Below, one piece after another: positions 2,619 to 8,168 of a stretch of 32,971 bases of DNA. How positions within the stretch are numbered: the first letter of the stretch is position 1; each line of letters opens with the position of its first letter. A model generated the notes under the pieces. The model ran no database searches, was not told the origin of the DNA, and worked only from the letters and a program-made list of their open reading frames with translations. The position numbers and the translations under genes were made by a program. Origin of the DNA: a virus (taxonomy: Duplodnaviria > Heunggongvirae > Uroviricota > Caudoviricetes); the IMG/VR virus record IMGVR_UViG_2541047885_000016; one strand, 5' to 3'.

Positions 2619-3209
2619 ATGTCTCGAATTTTTGCTTACTGTCGGATATCAACGCTGGATCAGACCACCGAAAATCAACGCCGGGAAATCGAAAGTGCAG
2701 GTTTTAAAATCAAACCTCAGCAAATAATCGAAGAACACATTAGCGGCTCAGCAGCAACCAGTGAGCGTCCTGGTTTTAACCGGTTGCTTGCTCGCCTGAA
2801 ATGTGGTGATCAATTGATTGTGACAAAATTGGATCGCCTTGGTTGTAATGCAATGGATATCAGGAAAACAGTGGAACAACTGACCGAAACAGGTATCAGA
2901 GTGCATTGCTTAGCATTGGGGGGCATTGACCTGACCAGTCCAACAGGAAAAATGATGATGCAAGTAATTTCAGCAGTCGCTGAATTTGAACGAGACCTTT
3001 TACTTGAACGCACTCATTCCGGGATAGTAAGAGCCCGGGGCGCAGGGAAACGTTTTGGTCGACCACCTGTGTTAAATGAAGAACAGAAACAGGTGGTATT
3101 CGAACGGATTAAGTCAGGTGTAAGTATAAGTGCCATTGCCCGGGAATTCAAAACCTCGCGGCAAACCATTTTAAGAGCCAAAGCAAAACTTCAGACACCT
3201 GACATATAA
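2619..3209 (+). CDS. pin: serine recombinase, Pin/Gin/Hin-family DNA invertase
   Basis: 196 aa; N-terminal resolvase catalytic motif YCRISTLDQ (active-site Ser10); C-terminal helix-turn-helix region ([19 protein letters not shown]); typical invertase length. Confidence 0.9.
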
Positions 3210-3436
3210 AAAATAATCTCGGTGTGAGATGCTTTACGTCTTCCAAGCCCCCTTCCTTGCCGTAAATGGAAAGATACATCTAATTATAGAATTTATATGT
3301 TTTACCCTACGGCAGTGCTGGCCATTCAATATCCTGTGCAGTTGACGTATCAACACGGTTCAGCAACACCCGATACTTTTTCCTGGCTTCCAGCAACGGG
3401 GTTTCTTCCTCCGTTGCATATACAGCTCACCTTTTT

Positions 3437-3730
3437 TCACCCACGATTAACCAACAGCCAGATCAGCAGACACGCCACCACCGGCACAGCAAAATCCATC
3501 AGGCTTGCCACATCCCAAACACGCGGATCAAAACCGCCCCACCACGGCATGTTAATCCGCTTGCCATGCCCGAACATTTCAATCCAGCGATATTCTGCCT
3601 GGGTGTGTTCACGCGCAATGAAGAACGTACAACCAGCTATCGCCCCATAAGCCCAGTTTCCGGTAAAAAGACCAACCAGTGTCTGCGCAGCCACAGCACA
3701 AAGCGCATGAAGAAAAGGTGTTATATCCAT
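3437..3730 (-). CDS. 97-aa hypothetical integral membrane protein, last gene of the tail-fibre operon
   Basis: Strong RBS (AAGGAGGAG a few nt upstream of ATG at 3730); hydrophobic segments at about residues 5-39 and 75-94 with a Trp-rich loop (MPWWGGFDPRVWDV); 10-nt gap to the upstream gene; no family recognised. Confidence 0.55.
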   Translation of the reverse strand: MDITPFLHALCAVAAQTLVGLFTGNWAYGAIAGCTFFIAREHTQAEYRWIEMFGHGKRINMPWWGGFDPRVWDVASLMDFAVPVVACLLIWLLVNRG

Positions 3731-3740
3731 TACTCCTCCT

Positions 3741-4445
3741 TTATCTAATATCGCTTCGGGAAGTTAATAACAACTTTAATTCTGACTCAAGTTCATCAAC
3801 TCTTTCAGTCAGTTTCTGGATATGGTGAATCAGTGGAACAACCAGACGTTCGTACATTACACCTTCGGCAACAAGGCCATTGCTGGAAATAGCTTCAGGA
3901 GCATCATCTTCGTTAGCTGGTCGCCAGTGTACAAACTGAGGAGCAATTTCTCCTACTTCCTCGGCAATCAATCCGTAGAATCCCCAGTCACGCCTGTCAT
4001 TTTCGCATTGCGACCTGTACCACACAGGGCGCATCCTGAAAATGAGATCGGCGTGCTCTGAATCTATTGTCTCTACTGAATGTTTATAGCGGATAGACGA
4101 TGTTGACCGCAGCACAGACGAAATTGCACGGTCAGGATTAAGATAAAGGTTTGCCGCCGCTGTAGTCGTGGCCAAATTCCATAAATAAAACGCTTCACGA
4201 CCTGTCAGTGGATAAAAATCTCCGCCATAACGACCACTTTCCAGATCGTTCACTTCCACTTTGTTTTTCAGCTTATTATCAACTTCAGTTTTTGTGTATC
4301 TGGAGCTGATATCCTGCTTTGCACTGGTCATCTCAGTCTGAAGCGTTGATACTTTTCTGCTAATTGATGAAATATCTTCCTTAGCTTTACTGACATCCCC
4401 CTTTAGCTTGGTGATATCTCCTGGAATTACTGTCGATGTAGCCAT
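3741..4445 (-). CDS. 234-aa tail-fibre-like protein: N-terminal coiled-coil segment plus C-terminal domain resembling the peptidase S74 intramolecular chaperone of tail fibres/spikes
   Basis: Heptad-like N-terminus (GDITKLKGDVSKAKEDISSISRKVSTLQTEM...); C-terminal pattern SSIRYKHS...GFYGLIAEEVGEIAPQFV...GLVAEGVMYERLVVPLIHHIQKLTERVDELESELK fits the S74 chaperone-domain pattern as I recall it; domain assignment from memory only. Confidence 0.55.
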   Translation of the reverse strand: MATSTVIPGDITKLKGDVSKAKEDISSISRKVSTLQTEMTSAKQDISSRYTKTEVDNKLKNKVEVNDLESGRYGGDFYPLTGREAFYLWNLATTTAAANLYLNPDRAISSVLRSTSSIRYKHSVETIDSEHADLIFRMRPVWYRSQCENDRRDWGFYGLIAEEVGEIAPQFVHWRPANEDDAPEAISSNGLVAEGVMYERLVVPLIHHIQKLTERVDELESELKLLLTSRSDIR

Positions 4446-4454
4446 TTTCCTGCC

Positions 4455-4736
4455 TCACATCCAGCCACGAAGTTGATGCTCAACAACAACCGCGTATTTA
4501 TCGAATATTGACGATTTTTTTGCATCATTAATGATGCGCACGTTTACAAAATATCCGTCTTCCTTAACACATACCGGCTCGCCATCTTCAGTAAGTTCTC
4601 CGGTTTCTTTGTACACGTTACCTATCACGTCAATAAGAATATCATCCTGCATCGACTCGTCATCATAATAGCCAGCACTCTTCATAAAGGCCGAAAAGTC
4701 GGCCTTGTCTGTGAATTTGATAATTAAATCTCGCAT
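4455..4736 (-). CDS. 93-aa acidic hypothetical protein translationally coupled to stf
   Basis: Start codon overlaps the stf stop (ATGA at 4736); acidic composition; no hydrophobic segments; no family recognised. Confidence 0.55.
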   Translation of the reverse strand: MRDLIIKFTDKADFSAFMKSAGYYDDESMQDDILIDVIGNVYKETGELTEDGEPVCVKEDGYFVNVRIINDAKKSSIFDKYAVVVEHQLRGWM

Positions 4737-7114
4737 TATATTATCTCTCCCATTTGCGCATCGGTTAATTCTTTATGCCATATTCTAAAATTCCTGATAT
4801 AACCAAATAAATGACGTAAGCCGGCTGTAGTCTGGCCTCCAATCCTTATACCTGTAGCACCACTAACACTCTTCCACGTTGTTGATGCTGGTGTTGATAA
4901 AACCCCATTGCAGCCAGCCTGAAACTTGCCGTCGCTTTTTATTCTATATACAGCGATAATCTTTCTTGGGTAATTTCCAGGTGGAAATGATATTGGATTA
5001 CCAAATTGAACATATGGAGTTCCTACACTACCTGCTGTATTTCTGAATGCAAAAACAAAAGCGTCGTCTTTTGTTTTAAATCCTGTTATATCATAAATTC
5101 TAGGCGCGGAATTTGGTGCTATAGACCAATTTTTATTCACTTCAACCATGCAGGTTAAAGGTTTGCTGGCCATGTTATTTTTACAAGGCAATGTAACAAT
5201 ATCGCTTGCTCGCGTTGATGCAACTGTATCGGAAATGATAAAAGATGATGCGCATGAGCCGCCTTCAAATTGTGGTGTCGTAACATCCAAACATTCCCCG
5301 CCCAAATAAGTTCCAGGTGAAACAGGTGGAGCAATTTGGATCTGAGAGCCAACCATATTATCAATAGCTTCAGATTGATATGTAACCTCGAAATAAATCC
5401 ATCCATTAGATTCTTTCTCCGCTCGGGCGGTTATTCTTGCAGCCCCTCCTCCCGTTTTCCTAATGGACATATCTGTTATATTAAGATATGCATCTGCCAG
5501 ATAAAAATATGCGGACCCGTCATATCTTTCAAATCTTATACGACATTGTATATTAGCACTATCGCTTTTTACACGACATGATGTTGTAACATACTTTTCA
5601 GTTCCAGTAACATCGACACCTCTTCCTCCTGAAACCGCAGCGATATTCATTGTCGTATTTGTCCCAATTTTTTCGTCCTTTATTTGAAACCGCCCATAAG
5701 TAAAGCCAAACTCATCAACACCACTTTCTGTTATAGTTACACTTGTTGTAGCTCCCCACTTAGATGGCGTAAGTGAATTAAGATGATAGTTGGTTCTTTG
5801 TCCTTCAATCAGCAAACCTTCTCGTTCAAATCGCGGTTCGTCAACTTCAGCAACGGTTAATACTCCTGATTTATTAATGTATGTTGCACCTGATGCGCGT
5901 TTGAAGCTAACAACCTTATCGGATGGCATTTTAATAACATCATCACCTACAGTTATTTGCTTATAACCAGGCGAAAAGCCAGCAAGCATATCCAGTGAAT
6001 CGTTAAACGGTATCCACACATCGGGAAGCGGCTGCAAAACTTGTTTATACGGCTCCGCAGCCTGGCTTGCATACTCTCTGGCTGCGTCTTCACTTGCTTT
6101 TGCAGCCGTCTGGCTTGCAGCGGATGCTTTCGCCGAGTTAGCCGCCGCAGTCTCGCTCGCCTTTGCGTTGGTTTCACTGGTTTTTGCAGCTTTTTGACTG
6201 TTGGCTGATGCAGTGGCAGAAGAAGCCGCCGCACTTGCAGAACCAGCTGCGGCACTCTCGCTTTGGGCCGCTGCATCCTGACTGTTTTTCGCCGCAGTTT
6301 CGCTGGCTTTGGCATTCGTTTCGCTGGTCTTCGCTGCCGTCTGGCTGGACTTTGCGTTAGTTTCACTCGTCTTCGCTGCTTTCTGACTGTTAGCCGCAGC
6401 AGTTGCTGATCCAGCTGCTGAAGTCGCAGAACCGGCTGCCGCGCTCTCGCTTTGGGCTGCTGCAACCTGGCTGTTTTTTGCCGCAGTTTCACTGGCTTTG
6501 GCATTCGTTTCGCTGGTCTTCGCTGCCGTCTGGCTGGACTTTGCGTTGGTTTCGCTCGTCTTTGCGGCTGTCTCGCTGTTTTTCGCGTTGGTTTCTGATT
6601 TTTTGGCTGCTGTCGCGGAGTTTGCCGATGCAGTCTGTGAGGTCGCTGCCGCCTGTGCGCTGTTAGCTGCATTCGTTTCTGAGGTTTTCGCCGCGTTCTT
6701 CGATGATGCCGCTGCAGTTTCGGATTTCTTTGCCGCCGCTGCGCTCTGAGAGGCGGCTTCGGCGTTGCGTGCCGCTTCTTCCACCATTTCCTCAAAACGG
6801 CGCAATGCCTCCGGCATGACATCATCTTCCGTCATGGCACCGAGAAAATCATTCAGCGTACCTGGTCTGGAACCTTCATAGACGGTAATGGTCCCGGCAT
6901 GTGAAGGCGGAAAACCTTCAACCAGCAGGGTGACGCTGTACTGGCCATACTCAACATCCATGCTGTAACGTCCGGCTTCATCCGGATTTTCAGAAGCCAC
7001 CGTGTTCACCAGTACCGTGGTGCTGTTACGCTTTGCCTTCAGTTGAATAGTGCAGTTCTGTATTGGTTTTCCCGCACCATCTTTCAGCACACCTGAGATT
7101 TTTACTGCTGCCAT
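4736..7114 (-). CDS. stf: side tail fibre protein Stf: lambda-like N-terminus and Ala/Ser/Thr-rich repetitive shaft, non-lambda C-terminal region
   Basis: N-terminus MAAVKISGVLKDGAGKPIQNCTIQLKAKRNSTT... matches lambda Stf as recalled; preferred start ATG at 7112..7114 (track extends to a GTG at 7120); GGAG RBS; C-terminal ~450 aa differ from lambda and end ...FGYIRNFRIWHKELTDAQMGEII. Confidence 0.9.
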   Translation of the reverse strand: MAAVKISGVLKDGAGKPIQNCTIQLKAKRNSTTVLVNTVASENPDEAGRYSMDVEYGQYSVTLLVEGFPPSHAGTITVYEGSRPGTLNDFLGAMTEDDVMPEALRRFEEMVEEAARNAEAASQSAAAAKKSETAAASSKNAAKTSETNAANSAQAAATSQTASANSATAAKKSETNAKNSETAAKTSETNAKSSQTAAKTSETNAKASETAAKNSQVAAAQSESAAAGSATSAAGSATAAANSQKAAKTSETNAKSSQTAAKTSETNAKASETAAKNSQDAAAQSESAAAGSASAAASSATASANSQKAAKTSETNAKASETAAANSAKASAASQTAAKASEDAAREYASQAAEPYKQVLQPLPDVWIPFNDSLDMLAGFSPGYKQITVGDDVIKMPSDKVVSFKRASGATYINKSGVLTVAEVDEPRFEREGLLIEGQRTNYHLNSLTPSKWGATTSVTITESGVDEFGFTYGRFQIKDEKIGTNTTMNIAAVSGGRGVDVTGTEKYVTTSCRVKSDSANIQCRIRFERYDGSAYFYLADAYLNITDMSIRKTGGGAARITARAEKESNGWIYFEVTYQSEAIDNMVGSQIQIAPPVSPGTYLGGECLDVTTPQFEGGSCASSFIISDTVASTRASDIVTLPCKNNMASKPLTCMVEVNKNWSIAPNSAPRIYDITGFKTKDDAFVFAFRNTAGSVGTPYVQFGNPISFPPGNYPRKIIAVYRIKSDGKFQAGCNGVLSTPASTTWKSVSGATGIRIGGQTTAGLRHLFGYIRNFRIWHKELTDAQMGEII
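6188..6565 (-). repeat. tandem in-frame duplication (2 x 189 bp, 63 codons) within the stf shaft region
   Basis: The DNA block GCCGCAGTTTCGCTGGCTTTGGCATTCGTTTCGCTGGTCTTCGCTGCCGTCTGGCTGGACTTTGCGTT occurs at about 6291 and again at about 6480 (189 bp apart); the protein repeats AKTSETNAKSSQTAAKTSETNAKASETAAKNSQ.AAAQSESAAAGS twice. Confidence 0.75.
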
Positions 7115-7124
7115 ATCCACTCCA

Positions 7125-7151
7125 CAAAAAAGCCCGCCTGAACCGGCGGGC
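7125..7151 (-). terminator. intrinsic terminator-like hairpin downstream of lom
   Basis: GC stem GCCCGCC/GGCGGGC (7132..7151) followed on the minus strand by a U6 run (7125..7130), between the lom stop and the stf start. Confidence 0.5.
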
Positions 7152-7178
7152 TGTCATAACACTGTGTTACCTGGCTAA

Positions 7179-7778
7179 TCAGAATTTATAACCGACACCC
7201 ACGATGAAACCGTCAGTGCGCCAGTCACCACTGCCGGAGCCTTCATAAGCAATATCAATGGCCACGGATTCGGTCGGGTTAAACTGCACGCCAGCTCCCC
7301 ACGCCAGAGACGTGTTGCTGTGGCGATCATCATCACTTCCGGTCAGCACATCGTGCGTTTTCCCCTTGTTGTCAGTTACGCGGAGATAATCCCCGGAGAA
7401 CGTCGAAACACGGCTGTAAGCCATACCTGCCATCGCATAAGCACTGAACCATTCATTCACGCGTACAGATGGCCCCGCCATCATGCTGAACCAGCGGTTA
7501 CGCACTGAATCTTCATGCCAGCGGGTATCGCTGTAATGCGTTTTTTGCTCATCTTTGGCATTGGCATAACTGAATGACGTCACCAGCCCCAGCGTGTCCG
7601 TAAATTCATAACGGTATTTCACGTTAATCCCGTTCAGATTATCGCTGCCGGGAACGTTCGTCGAGGCATGAAGATACCCCGCGCTCAGCGTGGACTGATG
7701 TTCAGATGCCCATGCAGGCGCACCGGATACGGCCAGACAAATGGCTGCGGACAAAATGGCGGCATAAAGTTTACGCAT
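7179..7778 (-). CDS. lom: outer membrane beta-barrel protein Lom (Ail/Lom family)
   Basis: 199 aa; signal peptide MRKLYAAILSAAICLAVSGAPAWA; C-terminus ...IAYEGSGSGDWRTDGFIVGVGYKF matches lambda Lom as recalled. Confidence 0.9.
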   Translation of the reverse strand: MRKLYAAILSAAICLAVSGAPAWASEHQSTLSAGYLHASTNVPGSDNLNGINVKYRYEFTDTLGLVTSFSYANAKDEQKTHYSDTRWHEDSVRNRWFSMMAGPSVRVNEWFSAYAMAGMAYSRVSTFSGDYLRVTDNKGKTHDVLTGSDDDRHSNTSLAWGAGVQFNPTESVAIDIAYEGSGSGDWRTDGFIVGVGYKF

Positions 7779-7847
7779 AATTACCTCTCGCTTTTCTGCA
7801 ATAAAAAAGGCACCATTTCTGGTGCCCTTATATGGGTTATAACAATT

Positions 7848-8168
7848 TCAACGAATACTGATGCCGGAAGCGGCTTTTTTGGTCACAATCACCGTACAGT
7901 CGGTGATATTACCTGCCCGCTGATTGCCTTTATGGAAAACCTTAAACTCCAGAGTGACGCTTCCCCTGCCACTCGGCATATCAATAACCGCACTGTAGCT
8001 ACCGGGAATGGCCCCTTTAGTTTCTCTGGATGCGATTAATACACCGTTGCCGGTGGATTTCCACCACTGGTAATGGTCGGGGCCGTCAGGCGTTTCAGGA
8101 ACACGTCGTTCATGAATATCTGATCGCCCTGACCAACAAACATCGGTTTTGTGTTGCCATTCGCAGGA
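7848..8168 (-). pseudogene. out-of-frame remnant of the J C-terminal receptor-binding region
   Basis: A frame +1 relative to J is open from 8168 to the stop at 7848..7850; its last ~60 codons (...GAIPGSYSAVIDMPSGRGSVTLEFKVFHKGNQRAGNITDCTVIVTKKAASGISIR) resemble the extreme C-terminus of lambda J as recalled (...IVDMPAGRGNVILTF...VMVIKKQALGISVV); the upstream part of that frame is junk-like. Confidence 0.55.

What the first reader, a model, noticed from the sequence alone, without database searches (positions are those of the whole stretch)
3437..3730. 97-aa membrane protein at the end of the tail-fibre operon: candidate moron (for example superinfection exclusion)
A small multi-pass membrane protein with a strong RBS is the last gene of the fibre operon, right at the prophage edge next to pin and ydfK. 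Small inner-membrane proteins in comparable late-region positions in other phages often block DNA entry or modify receptors. I could not assign it to a family from sequence alone.
Basis: inference. Interest (0 to 1): 0.5.

Follow-up and report, generated by a model that had tools for sequence, protein, structure and literature searches.

The report
Conserved small membrane protein beside tail-fibre genes
The 97-residue gene is real, under purifying selection and very common: it encodes a three-helix inner-membrane protein of an uncharacterised family (PHROG 1443) that sits next to receptor-binding tail genes in very different phages, but it is not a classic self-expressed moron and its proposed role in blocking other phages is untested.

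Summary
Window 3437-3730 (-) is an intact 97-aa ORF with a perfect AGGAGG ribosome-binding site, 10 nt after the preceding S74-type fibre gene. It is the last intact gene of the Qin-type prophage fibre operon, followed by a tfa remnant, pinQ and ydfK.

It is a full-length member of PHROG 1443 (E 2.7e-58, function unknown), with dN/dS about 0.12. It occurs in 1900 of 5426 complete E. coli genomes, with a median of 2 copies. It matches nothing in Pfam, NCBIfam, PADLOC or PDB. The AlphaFold model is very confident (pLDDT 97.7): a three-helix bundle with no fold relatives. Invariant polar residues (H8, Q16, R40-E41-x-x-Q44-A45-E46, W72, D79, P83) and the K/R count place the conserved loop on the cytoplasmic face.

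Homologues lie beside receptor-binding protein genes in lambdoid, P22-like and P2-like prophages, DGR-bearing prophages, a Desulfovibrio prophage and jumbo Aeromonas phages. They also occur as lone chromosomal genes.

The unit that moves between genomes is only the ribosome-binding site plus the ORF. It has no promoter or terminator of its own, so it is not a strict moron.

My best guess (about 0.3) is a non-structural accessory protein that acts at the inner membrane like SieA or gp15. An enzyme-like or ligand-binding role at the cytoplasmic face is a close rival.

The parts
3437..3730 (-). 97-aa three-helix membrane protein gene (PHROG 1443; RefSeq WP_000355603.1; called 'Ybl63' in UniRef)
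3731..3742 (-). Intergenic 10 nt carrying the AGGAGG Shine-Dalgarno sequence. This is the 5' limit of the mobile homology block: the boundary falls at 3742, 3731 or 3730 in 50 of 84 loci.
3741..4445 (-). 234-aa short fibre protein: N-terminal coiled coil plus a Peptidase_S74 intramolecular-chaperone domain (residues 116-172). It is the immediate upstream cistron and is optional in related prophages.
4455..4736 (-). 93-aa protein (phrog_1361, with a weaker match to phrog_18574). It recurs as a partner just upstream of the 97-aa gene in E. coli and Comamonas prophages.
4736..7120 (-). 794-aa side tail fibre (phage_tail_N domain plus a long Ala/Ser/Thr-rich repeat), the first gene of the fibre operon
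3307..3417 (-). 3' remnant of a tail-fibre assembly (tfa) gene, 19 nt downstream of the 97-aa gene. It is the right-hand junction of the cassette.
2619..3209 (+). pinQ serine invertase (context only; no flanking inverted repeats that would enclose the gene)

Best explanation
The gene encodes a non-structural accessory protein of the inner membrane. It travels as a minimal cassette (ribosome-binding site plus ORF) attached to receptor-binding-protein (RBP) genes and is expressed as the last cistron of the fibre operon.

The protein is a compact three-helix bundle that exposes almost nothing to the periplasm. Its invariant polar and charged residues sit together at the cytoplasmic membrane interface.

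The most likely biological role is protective, like P22 SieA, HK97 gp15 or T4 Imm. In that role it would sit in the inner membrane and interfere with a step that an infecting phage needs there, namely formation or use of the genome-delivery channel. That would benefit the carrying phage or lysogen.

Shown here:
- The gene is real and under purifying selection.
- It has a membrane-helix architecture.
- It belongs to PHROG 1443.
- It is linked to RBP genes across unrelated phages.
- It lacks transcription signals of its own.

Inferred:
- The topology with the N-terminus inside.
- The clustering of conserved residues at the cytoplasmic face.
- Dispensability.
- The exclusion function itself.
For: Real gene: PHROG 1443 at E 2.7e-58 and dN/dS 0.115.

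Membrane architecture:
- Three hydrophobic helices and an AF2 model with pLDDT 97.7 and pTM 0.83.
- Across 72 family members, the N-terminus plus the 40-73 loop carry 5.8 K/R residues. The turn plus the C-tail carry 0.64. By the positive-inside rule the conserved loop is cytoplasmic.

Linkage to RBP genes:
- After stf and the S74 fibre in lambdoid prophages.
- A 4-nt overlap with the tailspike gene in P22-like phage JEP4, with int following.
- A 0-nt gap after an S74 fibre in a Leclercia P2-like prophage.
- After a TSP1/Gp66-type tailspike, a Laminin_G_3 fibre, and a pectate-lyase/S74 spike in Desulfovibrio.
- Directly upstream of a gene with a tail-fibre-like N-terminus in jumbo phage AVP1.

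Dispensable and non-structural: only a broken fragment remains after the S74 fibre of phage HC6. The gene is present or absent as a precise module.

Precedents: P22 SieA is a three-TM inner-membrane protein with a conserved cytoplasmic motif (PMC10883804). HK97 gp15 is a small inner-membrane protein encoded inside the tail operon (PMC3594210).

Chromosomal copies in gamma-proteobacteria nest among phage copies in the tree. This fits retention of a protective gene after prophage decay.
Against: - No exclusion phenotype or expression data exist, and no paper mentions the protein.
- No promoter or terminator flanks the gene, and the mobile block carries only the ribosome-binding site and ORF. Expression from a repressed prophage, which a lysogen-protecting function usually needs, is therefore not evident.
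- E. coli genomes that carry the gene hold a median of 2 and up to 7 copies at 92-100% identity. The protein therefore cannot broadly exclude the lambdoid phages that carry it.
- Conservation is much higher than is usual for exclusion proteins: identity is 56-65% (best tblastn segment) to Aeromonas and Comamonas copies, 44-60% to most alpha-proteobacterial ones, and about 40% over part of the protein in Desulfovibrio. Many polar residues are invariant or nearly so, which looks more like a catalytic or ligand-binding site.
- Stable lone chromosomal copies sit in non-phage contexts in Aeromonas, Leclercia and sphingomonads.
- Intact copies exist in jumbo Aeromonas phages.
- There is no sequence match to any known exclusion family in PHROGs, PADLOC or Pfam.
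Confidence: 0.3

Rival explanations
1. The protein is a small membrane enzyme or ligand/metal-binding regulator. It acts at the cytoplasmic leaflet on a conserved envelope component, for example a phosphate-bearing lipid carrier or a conserved membrane machine. Phages borrowed it from bacteria, or bacteria from phages. Expressed late together with the RBP, it would change surface-polymer supply or membrane state, for example to reduce trapping of progeny or to condition the envelope.
For: - Residues H8, R40, E41, Q44, A45, E46, W72 and P83 are invariant or nearly so across 72 diverse members. In closer members D2, Q16, G56, R58, the M61-D68 stretch (MPWWGGFD), S76 and D79 are also invariant, and R70 nearly so.
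- The fold is compact and very confidently predicted.
- Lone chromosomal genes sit in stable positions in Aeromonas (beside a Kdo-kinase-like RIO1 gene and two lipid A acyltransferase genes), in Leclercia and in sphingomonads.
- The gene is conserved regardless of which RBP type it accompanies.
- It is co-transcribed with late genes and has no promoter of its own.
Against: - There is no sequence or fold similarity to any known enzyme.
- At 97 aa it is very small for an enzyme.
- No functional partner is conserved next to the chromosomal copies.
- The catalytic-site reading is inferred from conservation alone.
Confidence: 0.25
2. The protein is a lysis-timing factor (a holin, antiholin or pinholin-like membrane protein) expressed at the end of the late operon.
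For: - It is a small protein with three hydrophobic helices.
- In Comamonas and Acidovorax prophages it lies directly before a lysis cassette: holin-like ORFs, then a SAR-endolysin-like or phrog_3108 protein, then an Rz-like spanin.
- From general knowledge, the T4 and T7 holin genes follow their tail-fibre genes.
Against: - Those lysis cassettes carry their own holin-like ORFs, for example the 67-aa ORF at L116 6320-6523.
- In the other phage contexts examined here the gene lies after the fibre or tailspike gene with no lysis gene annotated next to it.
- It lacks the charged C-terminal tail typical of holins.
- Conservation is far higher than in holin families.
- Stable chromosomal copies lie outside prophages.
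Confidence: 0.08
3. The protein is a tail-fibre or virion assembly factor, or a minor virion or ejection component needed for RBP function.
For: - It is tightly linked to RBP genes, and apparently translationally coupled to them, in many phage types.
- It forms a conserved pair with the 93-aa phrog_1361/18574 protein in E. coli and Comamonas.
Against: - It is an integral membrane protein whose sequence does not co-vary with the RBP type.
- It has decayed in phage HC6, which keeps the fibre gene intact.
- Lone chromosomal copies exist without any tail genes nearby.
- In Aeromonas phage 62AhydR11PP it lies among small genes at the start of the genome, far from recognisable tail genes.
Confidence: 0.08
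4. The ORF is spurious or non-functional.
For: It has no assigned function and is annotated everywhere as 'hypothetical protein'.
Against: dN/dS is 0.115. Hundreds of homologues of the same length occur across Proteobacteria. It has a perfect Shine-Dalgarno sequence. The AF2 model reaches pLDDT 97.7.
Confidence: 0.01

Closest known systems
P22 SieA (superinfection exclusion, inner membrane)
   Same: Both are phage-encoded inner-membrane proteins with three predicted transmembrane helices and a conserved motif predicted on the cytoplasmic side. Both are encoded near the tailspike region of the virion gene cluster and are dispensable for virion production (PMC10883804).
   Different: SieA has 162-164 aa, is expressed from the prophage, and its types share only weak sequence similarity. 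The 97-aa protein shows no sequence similarity to it (no exclusion PHROG was hit). It has no promoter of its own and is far more conserved.
HK97 gp15 moron (inner-membrane block of DNA entry)
   Same: Both are small inner-membrane proteins encoded inside a siphophage tail operon. Both have a GC content that differs from their neighbours and both are horizontally mobile (PMC3594210).
   Different: Morons, of which gene 15 was the first named example, are defined as having their own promoter and terminator for expression from repressed prophages. This gene has neither. There is no sequence similarity.
T5 Llp and phi80/N15 Cor (RBP-adjacent receptor blockers)
   Same: They are encoded next to the receptor-binding gene and are not part of the virion (general knowledge).
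   Different: Llp and Cor are outer-membrane lipoproteins that bind the cognate receptor and co-vary with the RBP. This protein has no lipobox (sequence) and is predicted to sit in the inner membrane with almost no periplasmic exposure. It is 92-100% identical next to different RBPs.
T4 Imm
   Same: Both are small phage-encoded membrane proteins, and Imm blocks genome delivery (general knowledge).
   Different: Imm has 83 aa and two TM helices, is made early by a virulent phage, and shows no sequence relationship.
Class I holins (e.g. lambda S)
   Same: They are of similar size with three transmembrane helices. The gene lies next to a lysis cassette in some beta-proteobacterial prophages.
   Different: The protein has no charged C-terminal domain. 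In the E. coli, P22-like and P2-like contexts examined it is not annotated next to an endolysin gene. Those lysis cassettes have their own holin-like ORFs. It has a strongly conserved polar motif and chromosomal orthologues.
GtrA / O-antigen conversion genes between tailspike and int in P22-like phages
   Same: They occupy the same genomic slot, between the tailspike gene and int, and are small multi-pass membrane proteins.
   Different: No Pfam family, GtrA or any other, was matched. The protein has three helices, not four, and no gtrB or gtr(type) partners. Homologues also occur in sphingomonads, which, from general knowledge, lack classical LPS.

Membership tests
PHROG 1443 (uncharacterised phage protein family) | Full-length, significant match to the family profile | tested here: met
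   E 2.7e-58; residues 1-96 against profile positions 1-96 of 97
Moron (Juhala/Hendrix definition, as restated in PMC3594210) | [quoted passage not shown] | tested here: met
   About 0.51 over the gene against 0.38-0.46 for the upstream fibre genes
Moron (Juhala/Hendrix definition, as restated in PMC3594210) | Own promoter for expression from the repressed prophage | tested here: not met
   No minus-strand promoter-like site lies between 3730 and 4445. The gap to the upstream gene is 10 nt. The homology block starts at the ribosome-binding site in 50 of 84 loci. The gene overlaps or abuts the upstream gene in JEP4, L089, L115 and L116. A consensus scan cannot exclude a weak internal promoter.
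Moron (Juhala/Hendrix definition, as restated in PMC3594210) | Own terminator | tested here: not met
   No terminator-like hairpin lies downstream of 3437. The homology block ends exactly at the stop codon in 25 loci.
Moron (Juhala/Hendrix definition, as restated in PMC3594210) | An insertion that is present or absent among otherwise related phages | tested here: met
   The module boundaries coincide with the gene limits. The gene is present in 1900 of 5426 E. coli genomes.
Known superinfection-exclusion families (Imm, Sp, SieA, SieB, Cor, Llp, gp15, Sim) | Sequence similarity to a family member | tested here: not met
   The only PHROG hits are 1443 and 34165, both of unknown function. PADLOC, Pfam and NCBIfam gave none. 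This rests on the assumption, not checked here, that these libraries include profiles for the named exclusion families.
Known superinfection-exclusion families (Imm, Sp, SieA, SieB, Cor, Llp, gp15, Sim) | Expression reduces plating or DNA entry of challenge phages without loss of adsorption | not testable with these tools
   Needs cloning and phage challenge
Holin | Small protein with at least one TM helix and a charged, hydrophilic C-terminal tail | tested here: not met
   The TM helices are present, but the C-tail averages 4 residues with 0.58 K/R
Holin | Gene adjacent to an endolysin or spanin gene | tested here: inconclusive
   Not adjacent in the window or in the lambdoid, P22-like and P2-like loci. 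Adjacent to lysis cassettes in Comamonas and Acidovorax, but those have separate holin-like ORFs.
Tail fibre assembly chaperone (Tfa) / Peptidase_S74 chaperone | Match to the Tfa or S74 profiles; a soluble protein | tested here: not met
   No Pfam hit. The protein is an integral membrane helix bundle.
GtrA-like flippase / O-antigen conversion | Match to the GtrA profile, with gtrB and gtr(type) partner genes | tested here: not met
   No Pfam family at E <= 0.1, and no such neighbours
Virion structural component | Present in purified virions and required for infectivity | not testable with these tools
   Indirect evidence is against it: the gene has decayed in phage HC6 while the fibre gene is intact, and lone chromosomal copies exist

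The most novel reading that the evidence does not exclude
PHROG 1443 would be a previously unrecognised class of small three-helix membrane proteins, shared by Proteobacteria and their phages, with a catalytic or ligand-binding site at the cytoplasmic face of the inner membrane. Phages of at least five architectures would have coupled it genetically to their receptor-binding genes. It would then define a new RBP-linked function, for example late remodelling of a conserved envelope precursor pool or self-protection of the infected cell, distinct from all known exclusion, conversion and lysis proteins.
Probability: 0.2. Interest if true: 0.7.

Novelty: new variant of a known kind. Interest (0 to 1): 0.4.

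Why it matters
The gene is in about a third of complete E. coli genomes, usually in several copies, and in phages of many hosts. No function, domain or structure is assigned to it.

Its recurrent position beside receptor-binding genes makes it part of the module that is swapped when phage host range evolves, and of the module moved when engineering phage host range.

If it blocks infection, it is a new and very widespread exclusion family. That would affect phage-therapy host-range predictions for E. coli. If it is a small membrane enzyme or regulator, it is a new fold-function pair with chromosomal orthologues.

Either outcome is testable with one cloned 294-bp gene.

Tried and rejected
Searches that found nothing:
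- Pfam, NCBIfam and PADLOC scans of the protein gave no hits.
- A profile search of PDB sequences gave no hits at E <= 10.
- Foldseek against BFVD and PDB gave nothing at E <= 0.001. PsaL-like three-helix matches appeared only at E > 3.
- The afdb50 library was unavailable.
- Literature searches for WP_000355603, phrog_1443 and Ybl63 found nothing relevant.
- General searches on RBP-adjacent small membrane proteins gave no paper on this family.
- The Tai tail-assembly-interference systems were checked and rejected. They are described mainly upstream of the packaging module, and the paper gives no link to this family or position.

Hypotheses tested and rejected:
- An obligate link to Peptidase_S74 fibres. 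Only 4 of 66 immediate upstream neighbours carry S74, and JEP4, L115 and L117 have other RBP types.
- Membership of a Pin-invertible segment. No convincing inverted repeats flank the gene.
- A lipoprotein. There is no lipobox and C11 is not conserved.
- The only holin of the Acidovorax lysis cassette. A separate 67-aa holin-like ORF lies between it and the endolysin-like gene.

Other notes:
- One UniRef entry names an Aeromonas member 'Prolipoprotein diacylglyceryl transferase'. I treated this as a probable misannotation and did not pursue it.
- A search of viral contigs with the most diverse alignment failed for lack of a conserved stretch. The closer alignment returned only E. coli-like loci among its best 80.

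Full report
**Observation**

The ORF at 3437-3730 on the minus strand exists as described: an ATG start and 97 codons. RefSeq annotates the identical sequence as WP_000355603.1 'hypothetical protein', in the Qin-type prophage end of E. coli strains such as TO6, C and ATCC 8739.

The upstream sequence reads AGA-TAA-AGGAGGAGTA-ATG. The gene therefore begins 10 nt after the stop codon of the preceding gene, behind a consensus Shine-Dalgarno sequence.

On the minus strand the operon runs as follows:
- J.
- lom (7179-7778).
- A 794-aa side tail fibre (4736-7120, phage_tail_N).
- A 93-aa protein (4455-4736, phrog_1361).
- A 234-aa short fibre protein with a Peptidase_S74 chaperone domain (3741-4445).
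- The 97-aa gene.

Nineteen bases after the 97-aa gene comes a 3' remnant of a tfa gene (3307-3417). After that come pinQ, ydfK, ynfT and the truncated ydfJ. The gene is thus the last intact gene of the fibre operon and lies near the prophage edge, not at it.

**Is it more than chance?**

Yes, on five counts:
- The protein matches PHROG 1443 end to end at E 2.7e-58.
- It has about 580 homologous clusters at 90% identity and 330 representatives at 50% identity. Nearly all are stand-alone proteins of 90-110 aa.
- Median dN/dS among 38 distinct E. coli alleles is 0.115.
- The gene occurs in 1900 of 5426 complete E. coli genomes, with a median of two and up to seven copies. It is always annotated as hypothetical.
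- One UniRef entry calls it Ybl63. No paper mentions it.

**The protein**

Hydropathy shows three hydrophobic segments. AlphaFold2, run with a 72-sequence alignment, gives a very confident model (pLDDT 97.7, pTM 0.83) with helices at 4-23, 26-53 and 74-96.

Across diverse members E41, W72 and P83 are invariant, and H8, R40, Q44, A45 and E46 are nearly so. Among closer members D2, Q16, the whole stretch T43-I50, the M61-D68 stretch (MPWWGGFD), S76, D79 and C87 are also invariant.

Counting K and R over the family gives 5.8 on the side formed by the N-terminus plus the 40-73 loop. The side formed by the two-residue turn plus the short C-tail has 0.64. By the positive-inside rule (an inference), the N-terminus and the conserved loop are cytoplasmic. 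Almost nothing then faces the periplasm. The conserved polar residues would lie together at the cytoplasmic interface.

**Genomic context elsewhere: beside receptor-binding protein (RBP) genes**

The most informative result is where homologues sit. The family recurs beside RBP genes in phages of unrelated architecture:
- Lambdoid prophages and phages: after stf, the 93-aa gene and, optionally, an S74 fibre gene.
- P22-like phages: directly after the tailspike gene, with a 4-nt overlap in JEP4, and before int.
- A Leclercia P2-like prophage: zero bases after a 939-aa fibre that ends in S74.
- After a TSP1/Gp66-type tailspike in Leclercia.
- After a Laminin_G_3 fibre in Chelativorans.
- After a pectate-lyase/S74 spike in Desulfovibrio.
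- Between a 383-aa protein (phrog_2889, with a weak tail-protein match) and the avd and RT genes of a diversity-generating retroelement, in Comamonas nitrativorans and Pigmentiphaga.
- Just upstream of a gene with a tail-fibre-like N-terminus in the jumbo Aeromonas phage AVP1.
- Between the tail genes and the lysis cassette in Comamonas and Acidovorax prophages. Those cassettes have their own holin-like ORFs.

The 93-aa partner is part of the pattern. Proteins matching phrog_18574 lie directly upstream of the homologue in Comamonas, as the 93-aa gene does in E. coli.

There are exceptions. In Aeromonas phage 62AhydR11PP the gene lies among small genes at the start of the genome.

**Genomic context elsewhere: lone chromosomal copies**

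Many homologues are lone chromosomal genes with no phage genes nearby:
- In Aeromonas the gene lies between a pirin gene and a RIO1/Kdo-kinase-like gene followed by two lipid A acyltransferase genes. This position is conserved across species.
- In Leclercia it has a conserved chromosomal position.
- In sphingomonads and other alpha-proteobacteria it lies next to ligA, pnp, DAHP synthase or nadB.

In a neighbour-joining tree the gamma-proteobacterial chromosomal copies nest among phage copies. The alpha-proteobacterial copies form their own clade.

**How the gene moves and how it is expressed**

I aligned the window against 84 E. coli phage and prophage loci. The homology block that contains the gene starts at 3742, 3731 or 3730 in 50 loci and ends exactly at 3437 in 25 loci. 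The portable unit is therefore the ribosome-binding site plus the ORF.

Its GC content (about 0.51) is higher than that of the fibre genes before it (0.38-0.46). No promoter-like or terminator-like site flanks it. In every phage type examined it abuts or overlaps the upstream gene.

It is therefore expected to be transcribed with the late fibre genes. It does not meet the definition of a moron, which requires its own promoter and terminator (PMC3594210).

In the E. coli phage HC6 and its relatives, only a broken 51-codon fragment remains after an intact S74-ended fibre gene. This argues that the gene is not needed for fibre function or lytic growth in that phage. I did not verify that HC6 is virulent.

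No Pin-type inverted repeats enclose the gene.

**Interpretation**

The evidence supports a non-structural, dispensable accessory protein of the inner membrane that is linked genetically to the RBP module.

The closest analogues in architecture are two known exclusion proteins:
- P22 SieA has three TM helices, sits in the inner membrane, carries a conserved cytoplasmic motif, and blocks DNA delivery (PMC10883804).
- HK97 gp15 is a small inner-membrane protein encoded in the tail operon (PMC3594210).

The protein is not a member of any known exclusion family.

Several observations fit poorly with a fast-evolving exclusion protein expressed from the lysogen:
- The absence of a promoter.
- Several near-identical copies in one genome.
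- Very strong conservation with invariant polar residues.
- Intact copies in jumbo phages.
- Stable chromosomal orthologues.

These features fit somewhat better with a small enzyme or a ligand- or metal-binding regulator at the cytoplasmic leaflet, acting on something conserved across Proteobacteria (about 0.25). The two readings are not mutually exclusive, because a biochemical activity could underlie a protective role.

A lysis-timing role and a fibre- or virion-assembly role each get about 0.08. The remaining probability is for functions not listed here.

**Novelty and interest**

The gene is already in databases as a hypothetical protein and as PHROG 1443, so its existence is not new.

What this analysis adds:
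- The confident three-helix fold with no known relatives.
- The conserved polar cluster on the predicted cytoplasmic face.
- The recurrent linkage to RBP genes across at least five phage architectures and three proteobacterial classes.
- The RBS-plus-ORF cassette structure.
- The chromosomal orthologues.

If it proves to be an exclusion factor, it would be a new family of a known kind. If it is an enzyme-like factor coupled to RBPs, it would be more novel. Interest is moderate (0.4). The case is very prevalent and easily testable, but nothing in the data is yet surprising mechanistically.

Noticed in passing
window 3307-3417 (-), 2619-3209 (+): A 3' tfa remnant lies 19 nt after the 97-aa gene and is followed by pinQ. 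The order [97-aa gene][tfa remnant], with or without pin, recurs in 48 of 80 E. coli IMG/VR loci. This suggests the fibre cassette was recombined in using the conserved tfa 3' end as one homology arm.
   Followed up: partly
window 4455-4736 (-); L100 5714-6001; L110 5432-5998: The 93-aa protein (phrog_1361, weak match to phrog_18574) has phrog_18574 counterparts directly upstream of the 97-aa homologue in Comamonas prophages. The two genes form a conserved pair across gamma- and beta-proteobacterial phages. The function of the 93-aa protein is unknown; it may be a fibre chaperone or tip protein.
   Followed up: partly
L162 (Escherichia phage HC6) 3965-4120: An unannotated, decayed 51-codon fragment of the family (…NIPWWGGFDWRAWDLPSLLD) lies right after the S74-ended 859-aa fibre gene. 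Salmonella phage ST1UNAM and E. coli phages PBM-2 and PBM-3 gave the same partial, unannotated tblastn match (residues 41-93), but their ORFs were not inspected.
   Followed up: partly
L119 and L121 (Comamonas nitrativorans, Pigmentiphaga humi) 4785-8054: The homologue sits between a 383-aa phrog_2889 protein (with a weak tail-protein match) and the avd and reverse-transcriptase genes of a diversity-generating retroelement. This is the position between the target gene and the accessory gene in BPP-1-type cassettes.
   Followed up: no
L116 (Acidovorax MAG) 6320-7693: The lysis cassette after the homologue contains a 67-aa holin-like ORF (6320-6523), a 255-aa protein with an N-terminal hydrophobic segment and a lysozyme-like sequence (read by eye; no profile search was run), and an Rz-like spanin with an embedded Rz1-like lipoprotein ORF (7359-7640).
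   Followed up: partly
window ~6000-6850 (-), inside stf 4736-7120: There is a long Ala/Ser/Thr-rich repeat (…SETNAK.S.TAAK…) with GC of about 0.56 and AT skew down to -0.7. In strain TO6 the same gene is annotated as several broken pieces, so this repeat appears prone to length variation or assembly error.
   Followed up: no
window 7131-7152 (-): A strong terminator-like hairpin (8 pairs, 7 of them GC, followed by a T run) lies between lom and the stf start codon. The fibre operon would therefore need antiterminated late transcription, or a promoter of its own, to be expressed.
   Followed up: no
L088, L095, L098, L099, L101 (Aeromonas chromosomes): Aeromonas species carry a lone chromosomal copy at a conserved position. 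It lies after a pirin gene and is convergent with a RIO1/Kdo-kinase-like gene and two lipid A acyltransferase genes. One UniRef entry names such a copy 'Prolipoprotein diacylglyceryl transferase', which is probably a misannotation.
   Followed up: partly
L002 (Escherichia phage 4A7) 6386-9835: The sitABCD iron/manganese transporter cargo lies immediately downstream of the 97-aa gene homologue and before int. An IS element interrupts the fibre region upstream.
   Followed up: no
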